The position numbers and the translations under genes are program-made. A model generated the notes under the pieces. The model was not told the DNA's origin, made no database searches, and was given only the letters and a program-made list of their open reading frames with translations. DNA of 64,000 bases from positions 1-64,000 of IMG/VR virus record IMGVR_UViG_3300032893_000017. One strand, given 5' to 3'. This DNA comes from a virus. Shown one piece after another: positions 19,843 to 30,554 of the stretch; positions within the stretch are counted from its first letter, which is position 1; each line of letters opens with the position of its first letter.

Positions 19843-19862
19843 TGTTAGTTCCTTATTTTAAT

Positions 19863-19893
19863 ATAACAGGGAGAATTTTTAACTCCCTGTTAT
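19863..19893 (-). terminator. hairpin after major capsid gene
   Basis: 11-bp inverted repeat ataacagggag / ctccctgttat; weak U-tract. Confidence 0.5.
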
Positions 19894-19906
19894 TAAATAT
19901 AAAATC

Positions 19907-21400: not shown

Positions 21401-22164
21401 CTTTTACCTCCTATCCCTCTTTCTATAACTGACAATGCTTTTGGGGAAAGTGCTTGCATATTGTAGTTATACATCTCCCATTTTGAAATCTCCATAGAAG
21501 ATAATTCTCCATCTTGTACAGATTTTAACAGGATGCTCTTAACTGATTCTAAATCTCCTCGTGATGGAACCATTGAACCTGTTTCTTCTCCAAAAGACTT
21601 ATTTAGAATTTGCTCTTTGCTAATCTTACCTTTTACTGGTAATGGTTGCTTTGCTATTTTTTCTACTTCGTCACTTATTGATTTAATAAGTTTAGATTCA
21701 TCCAAAGCAACTTTAGCAAGTGATTTCTGAAAGTCATTATTCTCCTCCAGTGATTTCTGGAGTTGTTCTACTGTATTGGTCAATCCTTCCAATACTTTTA
21801 CAAAGGATTTCAAAACTGGAACTGCGTCGATGATTTCTTCATTTTCTGATACTACATCGTCCAATGATTTTTTCATCTTTCCTTTACCTTTCTCCTCTTT
21901 TTCATCCTCATCATCCTCTCCTTCATCCTCTCCTTCGTCTGTCATTTTTTCTGCCTTCTCTATCATGTTCTTCATTTTTGCTCGCCATTTAGGATCTTTC
22001 ATTTTCTCCTCGTAATCGTCTGACCTTGCTTTAAGGATATCATCAAGATCGTTAATATTTTGTTCTAAAGATTTCTGAAGTTCAGCTTTAGGATCCAATT
22101 GAGCTTGTGTTGAATCTACATTCTGATTCTGAGTTCCTTTAGAATTTGTATTTTGCTCTGCCAT
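21397..22164 (-). CDS. capsid scaffolding protein
   Basis: Acidic coiled-coil protein with about ten xxKS/KA motifs, between protease and capsid. Confidence 0.75.
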   Translation of the reverse strand: MAEQNTNSKGTQNQNVDSTQAQLDPKAELQKSLEQNINDLDDILKARSDDYEEKMKDPKWRAKMKNMIEKAEKMTDEGEDEGEDDEDEKEEKGKGKMKKSLDDVVSENEEIIDAVPVLKSFVKVLEGLTNTVEQLQKSLEENNDFQKSLAKVALDESKLIKSISDEVEKIAKQPLPVKGKISKEQILNKSFGEETGSMVPSRGDLESVKSILLKSVQDGELSSMEISKWEMYNYNMQALSPKALSVIERGIGGKR

Positions 22165-23132
22165 TATATACCTCCATTTAATTTTATTTTTATCAATTGT
22201 GCCTTATTATTAGACAGCAATCGTATAATTTCAAGAGCTTCTGGTTTATTAAACCCTCTAGCAATTAAATAGTTATAATATGATTTTACATCGTTCATAG
22301 AGTTATTCTCAACGAGATCTCTTAGAATCGATGGAAGCATCCTCATTAATTTTTCATAGCTAACTCCTGTAAAGGTTTGTTTTGCAATCCCTCCTTCTAA
22401 TGATTGAGTTTGTATATTCTGTCCACCGGACATCCCTTGAATAGAAGTGGATGTACCAGCTTCTAATGTTTTTAGTATTGAATCGTCTTCAAATGATTTT
22501 ATAAAAGAATTGAAAGAATCAAATTGATATGTATATTTACAGTCACAATTTTTGCATTTAGTTCCTTCTTTACATTGCCCGTTATTGGAACAAGACTTTC
22601 TAAGTGATACTAAAGTATTTTGGTGTATAGCTGTCTGTCTTTTTGTAATTGCAATATGACGCAATGATATTTTAGATATGTTATTTATTTTATTTTTAGT
22701 TATTGGATCTTCTTCAATAGACTTTTGAAGTATTTTTCCTCCAACAGAAGCTCCAAAAACATTACTTCCAGCTTCTAATGCAGGTAGAATAGCTTTCATT
22801 ACATAAGGATTTTTAGCAAAAAGAAAAGCATTACAAATGGGTAACTGTCTGATGTTGTCTATAAATAATTCTTCGGGTTGTCCTATTATAGCTTCACTTT
22901 TTTCCAATTCAGTTTTACCTAAAATCGATTTATGGTCCCAGTCGATATAGCCATCATGCAGAAATGCTTCAATACATTCATTATTAAAAGCTTTTAATAA
23001 TATTCTATCATTTACTCTATCTTTTGTTGGTTCATTGGGAATTATTTCTATTGGGATACGTCCATTCTTTTCTTCTCCTGATTTTCTGAAATTAACTGGA
23101 TATGTATAACTTATATCAATAAATTCTATCAT
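22164..23132 (-). CDS. prohead protease
   Basis: DRVNDRI, GYIDWDH, IIGQP, GASVGG and HIAIT motifs of the phage prohead serine protease family. Confidence 0.85.
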   Translation of the reverse strand: MIEFIDISYTYPVNFRKSGEEKNGRIPIEIIPNEPTKDRVNDRILLKAFNNECIEAFLHDGYIDWDHKSILGKTELEKSEAIIGQPEELFIDNIRQLPICNAFLFAKNPYVMKAILPALEAGSNVFGASVGGKILQKSIEEDPITKNKINNISKISLRHIAITKRQTAIHQNTLVSLRKSCSNNGQCKEGTKCKNCDCKYTYQFDSFNSFIKSFEDDSILKTLEAGTSTSIQGMSGGQNIQTQSLEGGIAKQTFTGVSYEKLMRMLPSILRDLVENNSMNDVKSYYNYLIARGFNKPEALEIIRLLSNNKAQLIKIKLNGGI

Positions 23133-24000
23133 GTAAAATCACCACATAATTTTTTAATTTATTTATTCTTTTTGTTTTAATTCCTTTATTTATAGCTTCT
23201 TGAGATAATTTTTTGCCTTTCTTTTTTTCACTCATTCTTCTAATACTTTCGTCGGTTTCTTTTGTAAGACCTTTTCTTGATGAAGGCATTCCAATAGCAT
23301 TATGACCAGCAATATATAGTCGACCACAAATTTGATTACATCCGCAAAGGCAGGTTTCTTGGGTTTTACCTATTTTTTGCCAGTATTGCTCTTTGGACAT
23401 TCTTGTTCCAGTTCTCCAGGTAGGTTTTCCTTTTTTTGATATACTAAGATTATTTCTATGAATTTCAGATTTTGGTTTACCTTTAAGAGATTTACTTATT
23501 TTATCTCCCCAAGTAACTATTATATTTTTTTTCAATTTACTCATTTTTAGTCTATATTCTTTAGACTCCATAGTTATTTTTCTTTTTTCATTTGCTTCTG
23601 CTCCAAGATTGCCACCTTGACCACCATCAGTAATATTATATAAATCATATCCAGAATTTCTGAAAAGTTTAATAAAATATTTTTCCATAAAATCAGCTTC
23701 TTGTTTTGTTTCTGCTCTTAATATAAGTCTTCTTGAAAAATTTTCTCTTCCATATTTTTTAATAGCATTATTTATTCTAACGCCTGAACCAAGATAATTG
23801 ATATTATCAGCTTTTGTAGTTTGCCCAATATATATTTTTCTATTTGTTTTATTTTCAATTTTATAGATTTTATATTTAAATACTTTTTCTTGTCTTTCTA
23901 TTTCATTTAAACATTGAGACATTTTATTTTCTTCTCTTTCTGATTTGATTAATTCTGCTGGAAAAGAATAAAAAAAAGGCATTGACAAGTCATCTAACAT
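23116..24000 (-). mobile_element. free-standing GIY-YIG homing endonuclease with NUMOD3-like repeats
   Basis: KIYKIENKTNRKIYIGQT, YLGSG, AIKKYG, YNITDGG motifs; repeated (I)SKSLKGK units; CLCGC..GHN. Confidence 0.9.
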
Positions 24001-24049
24001 TATTCATCCTTTTTAAAACGAATAAAATTATAGGCTTATCAATGCCTTT
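23975..24049 (-). promoter_or_regulatory. RNA hairpin enclosing the RBS and AUG of the endonuclease
   Basis: Inverted repeat aaaggcattgacaagtc (23975-23991) / ggcttatcaatgccttt (24033-24049), plus an inner stem over AAGGA. Confidence 0.6.
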
Positions 24050-24112
24050 AGCTTAAGTTATTCAAAATATTGCAACTTCTCGGGTAAATAAAAAGTTGCT
24101 AATTTAGTCTTA

Positions 24113-24141
24113 ATTATAAATTATTTTAGAGGAAAAGTAAA
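24113..24141 (-). promoter_or_regulatory. promoter TTTACT-N17-TATAAT for the head/tail operon
   Basis: Read directly; lies just downstream of a terminator. Confidence 0.6.
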
Positions 24142-24178
24142 TAACTTTTTACTATTTTTTTGAAAATTATTTAGAGAC

Positions 24179-24206
24179 AAAAAAAGCTAGGCAATTTAGC
24201 CTAGCT
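24179..24206 (-). terminator. intrinsic terminator ending the small-gene operon
   Basis: AGCUAGGC-UAAAUU-GCCUAGCU followed by a U-tract. Confidence 0.85.
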
Positions 24207-24229
24207 GATTTTCTTTATTTTGTTTCTGT

Positions 24230-24574
24230 TTATGCAATTAAATATTCAATAGCTTCCTTTTCTGTATTAAAAGCTATTTTCTTTTTTTGTGCAAACATGT
24301 TGTATGTTGCCAGCATTATCTTTTTTGGCAGATCTAATCCAATTACACAGGTTTTAATTGCCTGTCTGTCAAAAATAGGCGCATACTTTTTTACTTTTTC
24401 TCTATACTCCTGATTTGCCACTGCTCCGGTAACATTTGTGAGAACTAAAAATCTCTCACATGGATTTTTTAAAAAATGATTTTTTGCTTCTTCAATTACT
24501 TTCACAGAACTTTCACCTTTTGAATAATCAATTACAAATATACTTTTCATTCTTGCTGTAATATAATATATCAT
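24230..24574 (-). CDS. STAS/SEC14-like (SpoIIAA-like) domain protein
   Basis: IFVIDYS...LVLTNVTG...TCVIGL...AFNTEKEAIEYL pattern. Confidence 0.65.
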   Translation of the reverse strand: MIYYITARMKSIFVIDYSKGESSVKVIEEAKNHFLKNPCERFLVLTNVTGAVANQEYREKVKKYAPIFDRQAIKTCVIGLDLPKKIMLATYNMFAQKKKIAFNTEKEAIEYLIA

Positions 24575-24586
24575 AGATTACCTCCT

Positions 24587-24793
24587 TTATGCAAGATCTC
24601 TATTTGGATTCAACCAAAATTCAGTATTGTCTAACTTATCGTAAACAATTACTTCTTTTACCATTTCTGGAATTTCTGTTTCCTGTAAACTATTATACAC
24701 TTTTTTTACTCTCAAGGTAAAAGCCTTTGAATTTTTATTTTCATCTTCTTCCATTTTTTTAATTGCTTTCAAGATATCTTCTTTTTTTATCAT
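24587..24793 (-). CDS. hypothetical protein
   Basis: ORF with AAGGAGG RBS. Confidence 0.6.
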   Translation of the reverse strand: MIKKEDILKAIKKMEEDENKNSKAFTLRVKKVYNSLQETEIPEMVKEVIVYDKLDNTEFWLNPNRDLA

Positions 24794-24831
24794 TTTTATT
24801 TCCTCCTTTTTCTACTCAAATTATTATACAA

Positions 24832-24966
24832 TTAAAACCAACATCTTTTATTAAGACGTTTGATAATAAAATAGCTTATTATCTTACAAAACAGATGTCT
24901 TCTTTTTTTAGAAGGCTTATTACAAAATTCACATTTTATATCTTTTTCTTTTGCTTTCTCAATCAT
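24832..24966 (-). CDS. small hypothetical protein (44 aa, CxxC; not in track)
   Basis: MIEKAKEKDIKCEFCNK...; AGGAGG RBS; ATGA overlap. Confidence 0.5.
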   Translation of the reverse strand: MIEKAKEKDIKCEFCNKPSKKRRHLFCKIISYFIIKRLNKRCWF

Positions 24967-25163
24967 AATATTATCCTCCTAACTATTTTCCCTCGATCTT
25001 CTAAAGGTAAATTATTAATTACTTCAATTAAGCGATAAGTAACTGTTTCATTATCCGGCATATTTTTTATAGTTTCATCACTTGCACTATCATCCAGAGT
25101 TTTCCAAAGTGCATAAAAAATACTTGCTCTAAAATTAGAATTTAAACATCTATTTTCTTTCAT
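24963..25163 (-). CDS. hypothetical protein
   Basis: ORF with GGAGG RBS. Confidence 0.6.
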   Translation of the reverse strand: MKENRCLNSNFRASIFYALWKTLDDSASDETIKNMPDNETVTYRLIEVINNLPLEDRGKIVRRIIL

Positions 25164-25312
25164 ATATTACCTCCTTTCTTTACTAAATCTTTTCTAATTT
25201 TTTCGTAGGAATAACATTCCTGAAAAAGTTTAAGATTTGATACCCTATCAATTGTATCTTCTAATACTTTTAAATTTTTCTGAAATTCTCCAAACCAATT
25301 AATCCTTTGCAT
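25160..25312 (-). CDS. hypothetical protein (start moved to MQRINW)
   Basis: AAGGAG RBS precedes ATG 25312. Confidence 0.5.
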   Translation of the reverse strand: MQRINWFGEFQKNLKVLEDTIDRVSNLKLFQECYSYEKIRKDLVKKGGNI

Positions 25313-25530
25313 AGTTTTCTCCTTTAAAATATTTTTCAAATTCCTCTTCTTTAAAATTCTCATGAAGAAAAATTTTATTTATATAATTTAAGTGTTCTAT
25401 ACTTTCTTTATCTAATTTTCCTTCCTCTACAATTTCTTTTCTTTCATGTCTTAACTTTAGTAACCACTGCTCTTTCTGACGTTTTTTTATCTTTACTTTC
25501 TAGATCTGAATGTTTTAAATACAGATCCAT
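25299..25530 (-). pseudogene. frameshifted small gene (extra A in A7 run)
   Basis: Strong RBS and ATG at 25530; frame 0 stops after 28 codons, but the +1 frame from the A7 run (25482-25488) continues to TAA at 25299. Confidence 0.5.
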
Positions 25531-25541
25531 AGTTACCTCCT

Positions 25542-25751
25542 TTAAATTATTTTTCTAAAACTATTAATATTTCCTGTTTGAAGATATTTATTTCCTTGAT
25601 AATGACATAAAACTAATTCAGCATATTCAAATGCATCTTTGAACAACCAAAGAGTTTTATAAGGAAAAGACTTACACGAGTCTATTACTTCTCTTTCTGT
25701 TTTTTCTTTAATTAAATCTAATGAGATTGTATTCATAATTATCATTTTCAT
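25542..25751 (-). CDS. hypothetical protein
   Basis: ORF with AAGGAG RBS. Confidence 0.55.
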   Translation of the reverse strand: MKMIIMNTISLDLIKEKTEREVIDSCKSFPYKTLWLFKDAFEYAELVLCHYQGNKYLQTGNINSFRKII

Positions 25752-25783
25752 CTCCTTGTAAAATAATTATAATTTAGAATCTT

Positions 25784-25832
25784 AAAGATTCAATTAAAGG
25801 CTCTATGTTTCAAGAGCCTAAAATTTAATCTT
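25784..25832 (-). ncRNA. conserved intergenic stem-loop element, copy A (unidentified)
   Basis: AAGAUUAAAUU-UU-AGGCUCU-loop-AGAGCCU-UU-AAUUGAAUCUUU. Confidence 0.7.
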
Positions 25833-26202
25833 AAATTATTTCTCCAGCTTCAATTTCATTCTCTGTAAGATCACTTTCTTTGATCTTTCTTTGTAACCAA
25901 TATTTGAATTCTAAAGCAACTTCCTCTGATACAGCTCCAATATGCCAATCATAAGATTTCTGATTTCTAAACTCTTCGACAGAAGGATAACCTCCATGAT
26001 ATAATTTAGTTTCTTTATAATCATATAAGGTTACAACATGACCTTTTTCAGATTCCAGTATCCATTTTGTACTTACTTTATATCCATCTGATACAGGTAA
26101 ACAACTTCCTAAAATTTTTGTCAAAATTGAATAAGAATTTTTATAATTTGTTTGGAAACTTGTTCCACAAGCATCTGCTTTTAAATTCACTTTAAATTCC
26201 AT
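25831..26202 (-). CDS. conserved phage hypothetical protein
   Basis: GTSFQ...DGYKV..KW...VTLYDYK...WHIG pattern; RBS. Confidence 0.65.
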   Translation of the reverse strand: MEFKVNLKADACGTSFQTNYKNSYSILTKILGSCLPVSDGYKVSTKWILESEKGHVVTLYDYKETKLYHGGYPSVEEFRNQKSYDWHIGAVSEEVALEFKYWLQRKIKESDLTENEIEAGEII

Positions 26203-26242
26203 AAAATCCTCCTTTTAAAATAATTTAGTTTTAGAATCCATA

Positions 26243-26291
26243 AAAGATTCAATTAAAGCCTTCAGTTGTTTGAAGGCTGAAATTCAATCTT
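26243..26291 (-). ncRNA. conserved intergenic stem-loop element, copy B
   Basis: AAGAUUGAAUU-UC-AGCCUUCA-loop-UGAAGGCU-UU-AAUUGAAUCUUU. Confidence 0.7.
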
Positions 26292-26507
26292 CTAAACTAT
26301 ATCATTTACAATAGCATCTACCTTAATGATTATTACTTTTGTCTCATACAAATTAGTAACTGGCTGCAATACTACATAGCATTCATTGTCTTGTAAGTTA
26401 TAAGTATAATCTAGTTCTTTATTTCTATCAAAGATTTTTATCTCTTTATAGTCTCTACTTATTTCTCCTACATAATAATCTTCTCCTTTAAACTTAATTT
26501 TTTCCAT
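26292..26507 (-). CDS. hypothetical protein
   Basis: ORF with AGGAGG RBS. Confidence 0.6.
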   Translation of the reverse strand: MEKIKFKGEDYYVGEISRDYKEIKIFDRNKELDYTYNLQDNECYVVLQPVTNLYETKVIIIKVDAIVNDIV

Positions 26508-26664
26508 TTAATATTTTCCTCCTTTTAATATCTTTTCTAACATCTGAATAATCTCCGCATTTTTTGAATGAACAGGTTTTATCTTTATTACTTTTATCTT
26601 CTAATTTCAATACACAGCAATCATCTGTTGTTATGAATACACATAATCTTTTTGATCTTCTCAT
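26494..26664 (-). CDS. small Cys-rich hypothetical protein (not in track)
   Basis: MRRSKRLCVFITTDDCC...; fills the gap; AAGGAG RBS. Confidence 0.5.
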   Translation of the reverse strand: MRRSKRLCVFITTDDCCVLKLEDKSNKDKTCSFKKCGDYSDVRKDIKRRKILNGKN

Positions 26665-26843
26665 GTTTTATCTCCTTTAAGATACAATTTATTTTTATTT
26701 TTTAAAATTGCCAAACATTTTGAGCATAAAAATTTTTTATTTTCTATCTTTAAAAAACTTTCTACTTCTATACTATTTCCATTTCCATTATGACATCTGC
26801 AAATTATACTATTTGTTCTTATACTGAAAGCATGTGTTTTCAT
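26661..26843 (-). CDS. hypothetical protein (His/Cys, CxxC)
   Basis: ORF with RBS. Confidence 0.55.
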   Translation of the reverse strand: MKTHAFSIRTNSIICRCHNGNGNSIEVESFLKIENKKFLCSKCLAILKNKNKLYLKGDKT

Positions 26844-26865
26844 CTTTATTTCCTTTAAGTTTTAT

Positions 26866-27237
26866 CTAATCTTTCTTCTTTTTATATTTCAAAATAATTT
26901 CTAAAGCATTGTATATCTCTTCATAATTATTTTCATTTACTTCGATCAAATTTGCAAGACTATTTATTTTTGATTTAACAGTTTCAATGTTTTTCTGTTT
27001 TATTATTTCTGGAGTTACTTCACCAAAATAAATAGAATCAAAACTTCCAAATCTTCCAGAGCTTCTTGAACCATACTGGTATCCTGAATTTTTTTCAATT
27101 TTATATTCTTTTTCTCTTACAACTACAATATGAAATTTTTCAGTTTGTCTTACTATCGTATAGATTCTTATATTTCCAGAATATTTTTCAGTAGTATAAA
27201 CTTTGTCTCCAATTTTTAAATGACTTAAATCTCTCAT
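26866..27237 (-). CDS. hypothetical protein (LKIGDKV SH3/KOW-like start)
   Basis: Strong AAGGAGGTG RBS and its own promoter. Confidence 0.65.
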   Translation of the reverse strand: MRDLSHLKIGDKVYTTEKYSGNIRIYTIVRQTEKFHIVVVREKEYKIEKNSGYQYGSRSSGRFGSFDSIYFGEVTPEIIKQKNIETVKSKINSLANLIEVNENNYEEIYNALEIILKYKKKKD

Positions 27238-27263
27238 TCAATTCACCTCCTTATTTTAAAATC

Positions 27264-27293
27264 ATTATACAATCTAAAAAATAAAAATTAACC
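27264..27293 (-). promoter_or_regulatory. promoter GGTTAATT-N13-TTGTATAAT
   Basis: Same motif and spacing at 30263-30292. Confidence 0.65.
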
Positions 27294-27294
27294 T

Positions 27295-27486
27295 TCAAAT
27301 AATAATATCTTTTTTCATGTTATATTTTTTGTAGATATGTTTCATAACTTCACTTTGCTCTGTGTTGGGTTGTTCATCTCTTTTGGCGTTACATAAAGGA
27401 CATTCATTATATATAGAAGACTTTACATAATTTTCTTTGCACTTGCAATTCCAAAAATTAGGATTAAGTTCAATTCTCTTTTTCAT
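27295..27486 (-). CDS. small zinc-binding hypothetical protein
   Basis: WNCKC...CPLC. Confidence 0.6.
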   Translation of the reverse strand: MKKRIELNPNFWNCKCKENYVKSSIYNECPLCNAKRDEQPNTEQSEVMKHIYKKYNMKKDIII

Positions 27487-27499
27487 ATATCTTGTCTCC

Positions 27500-27826
27500 T
27501 TAATTATATAAAGTTTTTATCCAGCATCTTTTGTTTGTATCTCCCCAATCATAAAGTTCTTCCATTAAATAATTAAACTCTTCTACTGCTTCTCTATTTT
27601 CTTTGTAATAATCTGGATTACAGTTTTCTTTCAGTTCTTCAAATTCAATAATTAAATTATCAATCTTATCTTCATCATTTAATGGTTTTATTTTCTTCAA
27701 TCCTGTAATAACACAATCACAAAGTTTTGAAGTTTCTTCAAAAGTAATTTCATCTTCATCTTTGTCTTTTGTTAATTCCCAAACTCCATGAATGTCTAAA
27801 GTAGCTTTCCAATTTAAATTTTTCAT
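27500..27826 (-). CDS. conserved phage hypothetical protein
   Basis: WKATLDI...FNYLMEELYDWGD..RCWI pattern. Confidence 0.65.
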   Translation of the reverse strand: MKNLNWKATLDIHGVWELTKDKDEDEITFEETSKLCDCVITGLKKIKPLNDEDKIDNLIIEFEELKENCNPDYYKENREAVEEFNYLMEELYDWGDTNKRCWIKTLYN

Positions 27827-27838
27827 TTGTTTTCTCCT

Positions 27839-27902
27839 TTGATCTATCTCATCAGTTGCAAGTGATCAATCTTGCAAGACTCCCAGTTAAGGGAGTTTCG
27901 AA
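27839..27902 (-). ncRNA. hammerhead ribozyme, type II with pseudoknot
   Basis: UC-GAAA-CUCCC(uuaacu)GGGAG-UC-UUGCAAG(auugauca)CUUGCAA-CUGAUGA-GA; loop I UUGAUC pairs with 3' GAUCAA. Confidence 0.88.
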
Positions 27903-27903
27903 T

Positions 27904-28056
27904 TTATTTAACTTTCTTTTCCAATATCTTTTTCATATCAGGACTTATTACTGCATCTGGATCAAGTAAATCTTTTATGATCTGCTGTTTTTCAGTTTCA
28001 TTGTTTGCACTGTGTAATAATACTGCAACTTCAAGGTCATTGTAATAATATTTCAT
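27904..28056 (-). CDS. small hypothetical protein (not in track)
   Basis: 50 aa MKYYYNDLEV...; AAGGAGG RBS. Confidence 0.55.
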   Translation of the reverse strand: MKYYYNDLEVAVLLHSANNETEKQQIIKDLLDPDAVISPDMKKILEKKVK

Positions 28057-28057
28057 A

Positions 28058-28234
28058 CTATTCCTCCTTATATATTTCTGATAAATATTTTATTTCTGCA
28101 CAATAACCACAATGTGCATCATAATATTTATCATTTGGAGCAAGGTATGGTTTATATCTTTTATCAATTTTTTCTTCTGGCTTTGCTCCAACTACTTTCC
28201 TATAATTTTTTAAAAATTCTTTACAAGTATTCAT
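28058..28234 (-). CDS. small hypothetical protein (not in track)
   Basis: 58 aa MNTCKEFL...HCGYC; AAGGAGG RBS. Confidence 0.55.
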   Translation of the reverse strand: MNTCKEFLKNYRKVVGAKPEEKIDKRYKPYLAPNDKYYDAHCGYCAEIKYLSEIYKEE

Positions 28235-28449
28235 AAGGCTCCTCCTTTATACTTTACATGGTGCATTATTGAAAAACTTGAATATTTTAATATTTCATCA
28301 AATTTTTCTTTTTCTAAAACATAACAGGGATTTACTTTATAACCATTTCTTCTTATTTCTGAAATAAAATTACTTTTTGTTTTACAGTCTCGTTCTAAAA
28401 ATAATTTCTCTTTAGTTTTTTTATCTGTAACCATTGCTTTGAAAATCAT
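28231..28449 (-). CDS. hypothetical protein
   Basis: ORF with AGGAGG RBS. Confidence 0.6.
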   Translation of the reverse strand: MIFKAMVTDKKTKEKLFLERDCKTKSNFISEIRRNGYKVNPCYVLEKEKFDEILKYSSFSIMHHVKYKGGAL

Positions 28450-28462
28450 AAAATCCTCCTAT

Positions 28463-28514
28463 AAAAGATTCAATTAAATCCACTCAATTAAGAGTGGACA
28501 AAGTTTAATCTTTT
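28463..28514 (-). ncRNA. conserved intergenic stem-loop element, copy C
   Basis: AAAAGAUUAAACUU-UG-UCCACUC-loop-GAGUGGA-UUU-AAUUGAAUCUUUU. Confidence 0.7.
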
Positions 28515-28696
28515 ATAAACTTAATTATTTCCATTCTGATGTTCTCATGCATTTCATGGCTTGTTGTTTCTATTGCTGTATTCTCTTTTTCATTCCACAC
28601 TACAAATGTTCCTTTTTCTCTGTCATGCTTTAGAACCTTGAATGTCTCCATTGGATCGCTTATAAAATAAAATCTAGCTCCAACTAAATCTTCCAT
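28505..28696 (-). CDS. hypothetical protein
   Basis: ORF with AAGGAG RBS; TAATG coupling. Confidence 0.6.
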   Translation of the reverse strand: MEDLVGARFYFISDPMETFKVLKHDREKGTFVVWNEKENTAIETTSHEMHENIRMEIIKFIKD

Positions 28697-28887
28697 TATT
28701 CAACTCCTTTTGACTGATAAATTAAAATACCTTTATTGATACATTCTTGTAAATCTTCTTCTTTTTCACTTTTATATGCTATTCCACCAATTATATGTAT
28801 CTCATACATTAGCTTCATTACTTTATGTTTACTAATTGATATTTTATTACCTGAAGGTACATGCAAATAAATTCCTGTTTTTATCAT
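28696..28887 (-). CDS. hypothetical protein (true start MIKTGIYL, not 29124)
   Basis: AAGGAGGAG RBS before ATG 28887; the longer track ORF overlaps another gene and a ribozyme. Confidence 0.6.
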   Translation of the reverse strand: MIKTGIYLHVPSGNKISISKHKVMKLMYEIHIIGGIAYKSEKEEDLQECINKGILIYQSKGVE

Positions 28888-28904
28888 AATCTCCTCCTTA
28901 TTTA

Positions 28905-28966
28905 TTGCTGACTTTGAACAGCTTGTTTTCACAAGTGCATTACAGGGATTGCTCCCTGTCATCTGC
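28905..28966 (-). ncRNA. twister ribozyme, circularly permuted (open at P5 position)
   Basis: GCA-GAUGA-CAGGGA(gcaa)UCCCUG-UAA-UGC-AC-UUGU(gaaa)ACAA-GCUG(UUCAAAGU)CAGC-A. P1-P4 and both pseudoknots (UCA/UGA, AC/GU) are satisfied. Confidence 0.9.
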
Positions 28967-29158
28967 CTAGGCATATTTAAGATCATTAAGTAACCACATA
29001 GCTTCTGATTTTTTTTCAAAATAATCTTTATACTCATCATATTCTTCTTTTTTATCATAAGAACTTGCTGGTTTTTCAAAAGCTTGTATTTCTTGTAATT
29101 CACCCTTAACTTTTCCATTGTCAAAAAATTTAGATATAACCAAAAAATATGTTTTCAT
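28967..29158 (-). CDS. hypothetical protein (start MKTYFLV)
   Basis: AAGGAG RBS before ATG 29158; flanked by two ribozymes. Confidence 0.6.
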   Translation of the reverse strand: MKTYFLVISKFFDNGKVKGELQEIQAFEKPASSYDKKEEYDEYKDYFEKKSEAMWLLNDLKYA

Positions 29159-29192
29159 ATTTCTCTCCTTGATCATTTCTGATCTCATATTT

Positions 29193-29244
29193 ATTGCTGA
29201 CTCCCTTTCGGGAGTTTCGTCTATTTAAGACTCATCAGAGCAAC
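29193..29244 (-). ncRNA. hammerhead ribozyme, type I
   Basis: GUUGCU-CUGAUGA-GUCU(uaaau)AGAC-GAAA-CUCCC(gaaa)GGGAG-UC-AGCAAU; full core with GUC cleavage triplet. Confidence 0.93.
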
Positions 29245-30200
29245 TATTTTTCTAAAATCTTTATTATTTCTTTTGCTTGTTCAATATTTACTTTCAATCC
29301 ATTTATAGATATTTCATAATCTAATTTATCTTCTTCAACAGGCTTTATTAAATCAACTTTTATTTTTTGGTCTTTAATAGTAATACTATATTCGTCTATC
29401 TCATAACCTGATCTTTCATGTCTTCTTCCTCTATAATAAGGATTTAATTTATATTCTTTTTTGTGTTCTACTGTAATATTTAAAATCTCTTCAAGCTTTG
29501 TTTTTGTAGAATCAATATTTTTTAAGTTATCTACTTCTTCTTTTTTCTTTTCTTTTTCTTTCGCAATTTTATCATCTACCAATTTTTTGAACGAAGAAAT
29601 TAAAGACTCTAACTTCGTAAATCTTTTTGTTTTATAATCTGATATAGAATCATTGAAACTGTATCCTGCAAAATGTGAATCCATTGACCATTTACTATTC
29701 GAAACATAATGCTCTGATACATATATTTTATTATTCTTGTATTCAACAATTACTCTATAACCTCTTAAAAAGTTATCTTCATTAAAACTTTCAACTGAAG
29801 TTTTAATTCCACTTTCCTGTAAATTATCGATTAATTTTTTTACATTATGTATCCAACATTTATCATAAGCTTTTTTTGCTTTTTCTAGTTTTACTTTTCT
29901 ATCATTTTCTTTTTTAGCTTCTAATAATGATTTATATTCTTCATACAGTACAGTTAGATCCAATTCAATTCCTAATTCTTTTAATGATTTTTCAAAAGAC
30001 TCATCAAGGAATTTTGAATTTATAAAATTACTTTTTTCTGAATTCCAATCCATAAAAAATTTAATTTCTTTTACTGCATTATTAATCTTAACACTAATAA
30101 GTGCATTGTCTGTAACATATTCCTCATTTATTCTTTTAGAAACAATAAATTCAAATTCGTTCACTTTAGAAGGTTTTAAAATTTGTTTTGTAGTATCCAT
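29244..30200 (-). CDS. hypothetical protein, first gene of small-gene operon
   Basis: 318 aa K/E-rich ORF; RBS; preceded by a promoter. Confidence 0.65.
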   Translation of the reverse strand: MDTTKQILKPSKVNEFEFIVSKRINEEYVTDNALISVKINNAVKEIKFFMDWNSEKSNFINSKFLDESFEKSLKELGIELDLTVLYEEYKSLLEAKKENDRKVKLEKAKKAYDKCWIHNVKKLIDNLQESGIKTSVESFNEDNFLRGYRVIVEYKNNKIYVSEHYVSNSKWSMDSHFAGYSFNDSISDYKTKRFTKLESLISSFKKLVDDKIAKEKEKKKEEVDNLKNIDSTKTKLEEILNITVEHKKEYKLNPYYRGRRHERSGYEIDEYSITIKDQKIKVDLIKPVEEDKLDYEISINGLKVNIEQAKEIIKILEK

Positions 30201-30262
30201 AATATTCTCCTGTTAAATAATCTAATTAAAAAGATTCATACGAATCTTCCCTTTGTAATAAT

Positions 30263-30292
30263 ATTATACAAATGAGATTGGATTAATTAACC
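30263..30292 (-). promoter_or_regulatory. promoter GGTTAATT-N13-TTGTATAAT
   Basis: Duplicate of the motif at 27264-27293. Confidence 0.65.
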
Positions 30293-30320
30293 AGAAAATA
30301 AAGAAATTTTTCCCACTATA

Positions 30321-30554
30321 TTATAGGTCTAAAATTGAGGTTTTCTTTGAAATGCTTAAATTGGAATAGACATATTGTAAAGGTAAAGTAACAAGGGTTT
30401 TGCAGGAAAGACACCTGCATAATACTTTTGAGTCCTTATTGAGAAATACAAGACGACTCTTGATGATGATGTCATCATTCTTAGAAATGTTCTTTAGATT
30501 TTTTTCTACTATTGTTTTGCCACACTTTGGGCATAGGAACTTATCTTCGTTCAT
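30321..30554 (-). CDS. zinc-ribbon protein (Com-like)
   Basis: CPKCG...CRCLSCK. Confidence 0.55.
   Translation of the reverse strand: MNEDKFLCPKCGKTIVEKNLKNISKNDDIIIKSRLVFLNKDSKVLCRCLSCKTLVTLPLQYVYSNLSISKKTSILDL

What the first reader, a model, noticed from the sequence alone, without database searches (positions are those of the whole stretch)
25784..28514. Three copies of an unidentified covarying stem-loop sitting where ribozymes sit: candidate new RNA motif
Seen: copies at 25784-25832, 26243-26291 and 28463-28514 share an invariant 15-mer (RNA UUUAAUUGAAUCUUU) and a 5' arm AAGAUU(A/G)AA(U/C)UU. These form a lower stem with a purine-purine mismatch and a U-rich internal loop. The upper 7-8 bp stem differs in sequence in each copy but always pairs (AGGCUCU/AGAGCCU, AGCCUUCA/UGAAGGCU, UCCACUC/GAGUGGA). 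Copies A and B also have a downstream GAUUC that can pair alternatively with GAAUC. I could not match it to hammerhead, twister, pistol, hatchet, HDV-like or hairpin cores. Inference: it is an RNA-processing element (novel ribozyme, RNase III-type site or protein-binding site), given its positional equivalence to real ribozymes.
Basis: partly seen in the sequence, partly recalled or inferred. Interest (0 to 1): 0.85.

Follow-up and report, generated by a model that had tools for sequence, protein, structure and literature searches.

The report
Conserved RNA hairpins between phage genes
Three copies of a 49-base RNA hairpin sit between small genes of an uncultivated wetland phage, in the kind of slot where the same operon carries self-cutting ribozymes; they most likely mark where a host enzyme cuts or stabilises the long message, and are unlikely to be a new ribozyme.

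Summary
Three 49-nt elements lie at 25784-25832, 26243-26291 and 28464-28512 on the minus (coding) strand. They share an invariant 15-mer and a near-invariant 5' arm, which pair into a 10-bp lower stem with an R.G mismatch and a UU/UU loop. The 22-nt apical hairpin differs in every copy yet always pairs: 6 of 8 pairs change on both sides. No other copy exists in the 97-kb phage genome.

No homolog was found in Rfam 15, IMG/VR, JGI metagenomes, 185,579 species genomes, six related phage contigs or Bacillus phage SP8. Structural support therefore rests on three paralogs only.

The elements lie in a lineage-specific island of about 7 kb. It has its own promoter and a canonical terminator. Three ribozymes (hammerhead II, twister, hammerhead I) and the three hairpins each begin at an upstream stop codon.

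The conserved bases are base-paired and the loops vary, which is the reverse of a ribozyme core. Terminator scores are negative.

Best reading (about 0.5): an intercistronic processing or stability hairpin of roughly two helical turns, analogous to the RNase III sites of T7 and SP82. Cleavage is untested.

The parts
25784..25832 (-). Copy A: 5' arm AAGAUUAAAUUU, apical hairpin AGGCUCU/AGAGCCU with an 8-nt loop, 3' arm UUUAAUUGAAUCUUU. It overlaps the UAA stop of gene 25831-26202 by 2 nt.
   Evidence: 73.1 bits
26243..26291 (-). Copy B: 5' arm AAGAUUGAAUUU, apical hairpin AGCCUUCA/UGAAGGCU with a 6-nt loop, same 3' arm. It starts immediately after the UAG stop of gene 26292-26507.
   Evidence: 72.5 bits
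28464..28512 (-). Copy C: 5' arm AAGAUUAAACUU, apical hairpin (G)UCCACUC/GAGUGGA(U) including a G.U pair, same 3' arm. The UAA stop of gene 28505-28696 lies inside the 5' arm, and the 3' arm is 5 nt from the GGAGG of gene 28231-28449.
   Evidence: (72.7 bits)
25777..25783 (-). AAGAUUC directly downstream of copy A. It is an alternative partner for the GAAUCUU of the 3' arm.
26233..26238 (-). GGAUUC downstream of copy B, an alternative partner for GAAUC. Copies A and B also share about 45 nt of leader up to the Shine-Dalgarno sequence.
30231..30248 (-). Leader hairpin AAGAUUC-GUAU-GAAUCUU followed by U5, just downstream of the island's promoter. It has the same basal-stem words as the elements; whether it is related is uncertain.
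30263..30296 (-). Promoter block of the island (..CTCATTTGTATAAT). The same 34 nt occur at 90462-90495(-) of the genome.
   Evidence: the Logan unitig ending at 30262-30296
24185..24206 (-). Canonical intrinsic terminator that ends the small-gene operon: 8-bp stem with 5 G-C pairs, then U7.
   Evidence: d = +30
27838..27903 (-). Context: type II hammerhead ribozyme at a gene junction of the same operon.
   Evidence: 42.6 bits, gathering score 37
28907..28967 (-). Context: probable type-P5 twister ribozyme at a gene junction.
   Evidence: 37.5 bits against 37.6, E 3e-5
29193..29244 (-). Context: probable type I hammerhead overlapping the stop of gene 29244-30200.
   Evidence: 28.4 bits against 34, E 7e-4; fold

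Best explanation
The three elements are paralogous copies of a phage-specific intercistronic RNA hairpin that punctuates a polycistronic mRNA of about 6 kb.

Each copy forms one coaxial helix of about 21 stacked positions, roughly two turns of A-form RNA. The base is sequence-fixed: 6 bp, an R.G mismatch, 4 bp and a UU/UU loop. The tip is free in sequence but fixed in length.

The most likely role is as a recognition site for a double-strand-specific endoribonuclease, the host's RNase III. After cutting, or even without it, the hairpin would cap the ends of the resulting one- to four-gene segments. That is the job the hammerhead and twister ribozymes do by themselves at the other junctions of this operon.

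Shown: the fold, the covariation, the sense-strand orientation, the placement at stop codons, and the absence of a terminator-grade U tract.

Inferred: that an enzyme cuts here, and which enzyme.
For: (1) Six upper-stem pairs change on both sides while 96% of cells stay paired. Substitutions avoid the arms. So the structure is selected in the tip and the sequence in the base.

(2) One G.U pair in copy C becomes C.A on the other strand. The minus-strand folds are also 2-5 kcal/mol more stable than the plus-strand folds. Every listed ORF of 150 aa or more is on the minus strand.

(3) Helix length: 18 base pairs plus 3 non-canonical steps. The apex is always 22 nt despite 55-77% sequence change, which is what a ruler-like double-strand RNA reader would demand.

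(4) All six structured elements of the operon (three ribozymes, three hairpins) begin within 0-8 nt of an upstream stop codon and are followed by the next RBS.

(5) The operon has its own promoter and a canonical terminator, so the hairpins lie inside one transcription unit.

(6) The phage is a distant relative of SPO1/SP8/K-like myoviruses of Bacillota. Early mRNA of phage SP82 is a characterised target of B. subtilis RNase III, a narrow-specificity enzyme that cuts stable stem-loops with small internal bulges (PMC4838370).

(7) Clustered phage ribozymes are thought to process long transcripts into gene-length mRNAs (PMC3088659; PMC6765202).

(8) The phage itself encodes no RNase III domain or dsRBD, so a host enzyme is implied.
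Against: There are no cleavage data and no RNA-seq for this phage.

Only three paralogs exist, all in one genome, so covariation has no phylogenetic depth.

No sequence similarity to SP8 was found, so this is an analogy, not homology.

Strict conservation of both arms is more than E. coli-type RNase III is known to need.

The host is unknown, so its RNase III determinants cannot be checked.

A plain protective or insulating hairpin with no cut would look the same in sequence.
Confidence: 0.5

Rival explanations
1. Leaky, factor-dependent intrinsic terminators or attenuators that step transcription down along the operon. The G+C-rich apical hairpin followed by UUUAAUU would be the terminator, and the conserved arms would be a legacy of duplication.
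For: The apical hairpins have -10.3 to -12.1 kcal/mol and are followed by UUU. The model's next-best hit in the genome is a true terminator. The island's leader and a second operon both carry a hairpin plus U run right after the promoter, so hairpin-based control of transcription may be used by this phage.
Against: The terminator scan did not flag the elements but did flag 24185-24206. The d-score (formula recalled from d'Aubenton-Carafa 1990) is -21 to -60 against +30 for the real terminator. A terminator does not need a 15-nt invariant tail, a conserved complementary 5' arm or a fixed apex length. Neutral descent from a duplicate cannot explain a centre that is 55-77% changed between arms that are 4-7% changed.
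Confidence: 0.17
2. A DNA-level element: junction sequences of mobile gene cassettes or recombination hot spots (like the promoter-stem-loop cassettes of T4-type phages, or attC/REP-type hairpin sites), or a protein-binding palindrome.
For: The elements lie in a lineage-specific accessory island. The slot is empty in relative L341 and holds unrelated genes in L342/L344. Copies B and A exactly bracket one gene, 25831-26202, whose family is widespread in other phages. Copies A and B also share their downstream leader. Copy A has TTGAAT-16-TATAAT.
Against: Homologs of the bracketed gene in six other viral loci lack the element. The phage encodes no tyrosine recombinase or Y1 transposase. No GTTRRRY-type core is present. 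Promoter-like spacing is not kept in copy B and is impossible in copy C, where the RBS follows at once. Promoter-like sites are no more frequent than in shuffles. Compensatory changes and the G.U pair argue for a single-stranded fold.
Confidence: 0.12
3. A translational coupling or regulatory switch. A ribosome terminating at the stop codon in or next to the 5' arm melts the lower stem. The freed 3' arm GAAUCUUU then re-pairs with the downstream GAUUC or the Shine-Dalgarno region and changes initiation of the next gene.
For: The stop codons overlap or abut the 5' arm in all three copies. With the 5' arm masked, the 3' arm pairs with AGAUUC/GGAUUC in copies A and B. In a fold that begins at the upstream stop codon, so without the first 5 nt of the 5' arm, the 3' arm of copy C pairs with GGAGGAUUU of the next gene.
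Against: The logic differs between copies. In copy B the alternative fold would free the RBS, in copy C it would hide it, and in copy A it does not touch it. The alternative helices are short and weak. A pyrimidine-rich arm pairing with a purine-rich RBS is expected by composition alone.
Confidence: 0.08
4. A new class of self-cleaving ribozyme, or a partner-dependent one.
For: The elements share their genomic neighbourhood with three ribozymes. This is the association that led to pistol, hatchet and twister-sister (my own knowledge of Weinberg et al. 2015; the paper could not be opened). There is no Rfam match.
Against: It is an unbranched 49-nt hairpin with no junction and no conserved loop or pseudoknot partner. 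Only about 5 conserved unpaired bases are available, and the conserved bases are paired. No match to any ribozyme model was found at E up to 10.
Confidence: 0.03

Closest known systems
RNase III processing signals of the phage T7 early polycistronic mRNA (R0.3, R0.5, R1, R1.1, R1.3)
   Same: Both are hairpins of about two helical turns interrupted by small internal loops. Both are placed between the small genes of one phage transcript, and the sites within a genome resemble each other in sequence (established knowledge, from memory).
   Different: There is no sequence relation, the host is unknown and cleavage has not been shown. Here the conserved part is the base of the helix and the tip is free. 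The same operon also uses ribozymes.
[quoted passage not shown]
   Same: These are intercistronic stem-loops in the early mRNA of an SPO1-type myovirus of Bacillota, and this phage is a distant relative of that group.
   Different: The covariance model finds nothing in the close SP82 relative SP8 (17.5 bits, E 0.67). TerL and MCP are only 25-30% identical.
Clustered hammerhead and twister ribozymes flanking phage genes (Perreault et al. 2011, PMC3088659)
   Same: They occupy the same slots in the same operon, and the presumed purpose is the same: cutting a long transcript into gene-length pieces.
   Different: There is no catalytic core, and no match to any ribozyme model.
Intrinsic (Rho-independent) terminators
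   Same: A G+C-rich stem-loop followed by U residues.
   Different: The U tract is interrupted after 3 U. The scores are negative, the sites are internal to the operon, and the flanks are sequence-conserved.

Membership tests
Known self-cleaving ribozyme classes (Rfam 15 models, including RAGATH-1-hammerhead and RAGATH-2-HDV) | Match to a family covariance model | tested here: not met
   At E up to 10 the only overlapping hit is SpF43_sRNA at 18.8 bits (gathering score 70), which is noise.
Known self-cleaving ribozyme classes | Multi-helix junction or pseudoknot with a conserved unpaired core | tested here: not met
   a single unbranched hairpin whose conserved bases are paired and whose loop varies.
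Known self-cleaving ribozyme classes | Site-specific self-cleavage | not testable with these tools
   Needs in vitro transcription.
RNase III processing signals (T7 early, SP82) | Double-stranded helix of about 20 bp or more, small internal loops tolerated | tested here: met
   18 pairs plus 3 non-canonical steps stack into about 21 positions.
RNase III processing signals (T7 early, SP82) | Intercistronic position on the sense strand of a polycistronic phage transcript | tested here: met
   promoter; terminator.
RNase III processing signals (T7 early, SP82) | Cleavage by RNase III | not testable with these tools
   No RNA data are available, and the host is unknown.
RNase III processing signals (T7 early, SP82) | Sequence homology to characterised sites | tested here: not met
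   no hit in SP8. This makes it an analog, not a member by descent.
Intrinsic terminators | Stable G+C-rich stem-loop | tested here: met
   apical hairpins of -10.3 to -12.1 kcal/mol.
Intrinsic terminators | U-rich tract directly after the stem | tested here: not met
   The scan does not flag the elements. In one search, nT is 2.3 against 4.7 and d is below 0 against +30 for 24185-24206.
Hairpin recombination sites (integron attC, REP/RAYT) | Cognate tyrosine recombinase or Y1 HUH enzyme | tested here: not met
   none in the complete phage genome. A host-encoded enzyme is not excluded.
Promoter-stem-loop cassettes (T4-type PeSL) | A conserved promoter attached to the stem-loop | tested here: not met
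   and the sequence: a -35/-10 arrangement with good spacing is found only in copy A, and in copy C the RBS follows directly.

The most novel reading that the evidence does not exclude
The hairpin may be a sequence-specific processing signal that is functionally interchangeable with ribozymes. It could be read by a dedicated factor rather than by generic RNase III, for example a phage protein such as the ProQ-C-terminal-like protein encoded in the same operon (26866-27237). Less likely, it is a minimal new self-cleaving motif.
Probability: 0.08. Interest if true: 0.75.

Novelty: new member of a known kind. Interest (0 to 1): 0.33.

Why it matters
One operon uses three ribozyme classes and a protein-dependent-looking hairpin in equivalent slots. 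If the hairpins are cut, the phage would show directly that ribozymes and nuclease sites are interchangeable ways to segment a phage message. That bears on the still open question of what clustered phage ribozymes are for.

On its own, though, the element is a three-copy, single-genome motif of an ordinary kind.

Tried and rejected
Homolog searches that found nothing convincing:
- A strict gapped pattern in IMG/VR gave 0 hits.
- The 15-mer alone in IMG/VR gave 117 or more chance hits in a truncated scan. The best model score was 34 bits, inside a DnaB-like coding region.
- A looser pattern in JGI metagenomes gave 119 or more hits in a truncated scan, mostly generic palindromes or terminators of at most 32 bits.
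- A pattern in 185,579 species genomes gave 89 hits, none with the architecture.
- Close-relative protein scans with the genes at 25834-26202, 29247-30200 and the SNF2 gene found nothing.
- Loci holding homologs of the bracketed gene carry no element and no ribozyme.
- Six MCP-related phage loci and their whole records gave no hit.
- SP8 gave no hit.
- blastn of the island against GenBank phages gave no match.

Access problems:
The contigs of the closest relatives (MCP 62-74% identical: P0037, P0042, P0047, P0048, P0051) could therefore not be read.
- No RNA holder was listed for this DNA; the only run is the probable source wetland metagenome. Laying its contigs did not cover the elements.
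- Weinberg et al. 2015 could not be opened.

Ideas considered and dropped:
- CRISPR-repeat mimic: AUUGAAUC resembles the common AUUGAAAC handle, but the stems differ between copies.
- N4-type hairpin promoter: the loop is too large and is not conserved.
- k-turn, nut/boxB or MS2-type operators: the loop is not conserved.
- A trans-pairing partner: the complement of the 15-mer occurs nowhere else in the genome.
- Other GAATCTT sites (41 in the genome) lie in coding DNA and are chance.
Full report
**What is there**

The window is the first 64 kb of a complete 97,318-bp IMG/VR phage record with direct terminal repeats and 29% G+C, from a wetland metagenome. Every listed ORF of 150 aa or more, and the small genes of the island, read on the minus strand.

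On that strand three 49-nt elements lie at 25784-25832 (A), 26243-26291 (B) and 28464-28512 (C). Each has three parts:
- a 5' arm AAGAUU-R-AAYUU;
- a 22-nt centre;
- the invariant 15-mer UUUAAUUGAAUCUUU, which occurs exactly three times in the genome.

**The fold**

RNAfold gives one unbranched hairpin for each copy. From base to tip it has 6 bp, an A.G or G.G mismatch, 4 bp, a UU/UU (or UC/UU) internal loop, a 7-8 bp G+C-rich stem and a 6-8 nt loop. MFE is -18.2 to -24 kcal/mol, z -3.9 to -5.5.

On the three-way alignment, 96% of pair cells are standard pairs and 6 of the 8 apical pairs change on both sides. No shuffle of 500 reaches these values, and sliding the register destroys the signal.

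Differences are not spread evenly. Between copies, 1-2 of 27 arm positions differ against 12-17 of 22 centre positions (Fisher p 7e-5 to 6e-7). No indel has occurred. So the tip is constrained in structure and length, and the base is constrained in sequence.

One G.U pair in copy C, together with the 2-5 kcal/mol better folds of the minus strand, points to the sense RNA.

**Is it more than chance, and is it known?**

A covariance model built from the three copies scores them at 72-73 bits. The next hit in the genome, at 26 bits, is the operon's real terminator.

Rfam 15 gives nothing for the elements even at E up to 10. It does find three ribozymes close by:
- type II hammerhead at 27838-27903 (42.6 bits);
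- type-P5 twister at 28907-28967 (37.5 bits against a threshold of 37.6);
- type I hammerhead at 29193-29244 (28.4 bits against 34).

**Search for relatives**

No copy was found anywhere else:
- IMG/VR;
- 185,579 species genomes;
- loci with homologs of the gene bracketed by B and A;
- six phage contigs whose major capsid protein is 44-61% identical, and their whole records;
- Bacillus phage SP8.

The best apparent hit, L011, lies inside a DnaB-like gene.

The structural evidence therefore rests on three paralogs. R-scape-type statistics have no power here.

**Context**

By terminase and capsid (25-30% identity) the phage is a distant relative of SPO1/SP8/K-type myoviruses of Bacillota. It has a tail sheath and strong GGAGG ribosome-binding sites.

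Synteny with the relatives shows that window 23116-30320 is a lineage-specific accessory island. It holds a GIY-YIG homing endonuclease gene plus about 22 small genes. In L341 the homolog of gene 30321-30554 is followed directly by the homolog of the protease-like gene 22164-23132, with only a terminator between them. In L342/L344 the slot holds five unrelated genes.

The island has its own promoter block, 30263-30296. The same 34 nt are repeated at 90462-90495 in front of another operon. The island ends at a canonical terminator, 24185-24206.

Inside this unit six junctions carry a structured RNA: three ribozymes and three hairpins. Each starts within 0-8 nt of the upstream stop codon and is followed by the next ribosome-binding site.

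**What it most likely does**

The pattern of conservation is paired, sequence-fixed arms under a free, non-conserved tip and loop. This is the opposite of a ribozyme core, and there is no junction or pseudoknot. I put a new ribozyme at about 3%.

It is also not a good terminator. The scan that finds 24185-24206 does not flag the elements. A discriminant recalled from d'Aubenton-Carafa 1990 gives -21 to -60 against +30 for the real terminator.

A coaxial helix of about 21 positions with small non-canonical interruptions, placed between cistrons of a phage message and repeated with sequence similarity, is the anatomy of RNase III processing signals. Such signals are known from the T7 early region and, in the group to which this phage is distantly related, from SP82 early mRNA cut by B. 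subtilis RNase III. That enzyme is described as narrow in specificity and as cutting stable stem-loops with small bulges (PMC4838370).

Phage ribozyme clusters are thought to cut long transcripts into gene-length mRNAs (PMC3088659; PMC6765202). The hairpins would do the same with a host enzyme; the phage encodes no RNase III or dsRBD. They would also leave hairpin-capped ends.

I give this processing or stability reading 0.5, of which RNase III cleavage proper is about 0.3.

**Rivals**

- A leaky terminator (0.17) is weakened by the scores above and by the conserved arms.
- A DNA-level cassette junction (0.12) gains from the island's plasticity and from B and A bracketing one widespread gene with a shared leader. 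It loses because homolog loci lack the element, no recombinase is encoded, and the compensatory changes indicate a single-stranded fold.
- A translational switch (0.08) is suggested by the stop codons in the 5' arm and by the alternative GAAUC-GAUUC pairing. However, the alternative folds act differently in the three copies.

**Comparison and novelty**

This is an analog of the T7 and SP82 sites, not a member by descent. It is uncatalogued in Rfam.

Earlier notes of this scan describe similar two-turn hairpins at ribozyme-type junctions in other phages. Those are unchecked AI notes; they agree with this reading but are not evidence.

I class the element as a new member of a known kind, with modest interest. 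Its main value is as a test case, inside a single operon, for whether ribozymes and nuclease sites are interchangeable.

Noticed in passing
window 23116-30320: The whole block (a GIY-YIG homing endonuclease gene, about 22 small genes, three ribozymes and three hairpins) is a lineage-specific insertion in the head-gene module. Relative L341 has only a terminator in this slot, and L342/L344 have five unrelated genes.
   Followed up: partly
window 30263-30296 (-) and genome 90462-90495 (-): An exact 34-nt repeat ending in CTCATTTGTATAAT lies in front of two operons. Each copy is followed at once by a hairpin plus U run, which could be a promoter-proximal attenuator or a 5' stabiliser.
   Followed up: partly
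window 30231-30248 (-): The leader hairpin AAGAUUC-GUAU-GAAUCUU followed by U5 uses the same words as the basal stem of the three elements. This may be chance, since GAATCTT occurs 41 times in the genome.
   Followed up: partly
window 26866-27237 (-): The 123-aa protein resembles the Phage_ProQ_C_like family: Pfam E 0.004, below the cut-off; Atlas feature score 0.92 and structure TM 0.65-0.73. It is a possible RNA-associated protein within the same operon.
   Followed up: partly
window 25831-26202 (-): The 123-aa protein bracketed by copies B and A belongs to a widespread phage family with no Pfam or PHROG entry. Invariant motifs are DxYKVSTxW, YDYKxT, FR and WH.
   Followed up: partly
window 28696-28887 (-) and 25446-25532 (-): Two probable small genes are missed by the longest-ORF list. 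One is an ORF of about 63 aa starting at an AUG with GGAGG just after the twister. The other is a 28-aa ORF with AGGAGG inside the 178-nt gap 25364-25541.
   Followed up: no
window 19851-19906 (-): A strong hairpin (AACAGGGAG...CUCCCUGUU) lies directly after the major capsid gene and has no U tract. It looks like a 3' stabiliser.
   Followed up: no
L346 12384-12453 (+): A DUF3800-IX RNA (RF02968, 42.6 bits) lies downstream of the capsid gene in a related phage contig.
   Followed up: no
L342 6781-6895 (+): A large, very stable intergenic structure (-35 kcal/mol) lies in the equivalent accessory slot of a related phage. It is unrelated in sequence to the elements studied here.
   Followed up: no
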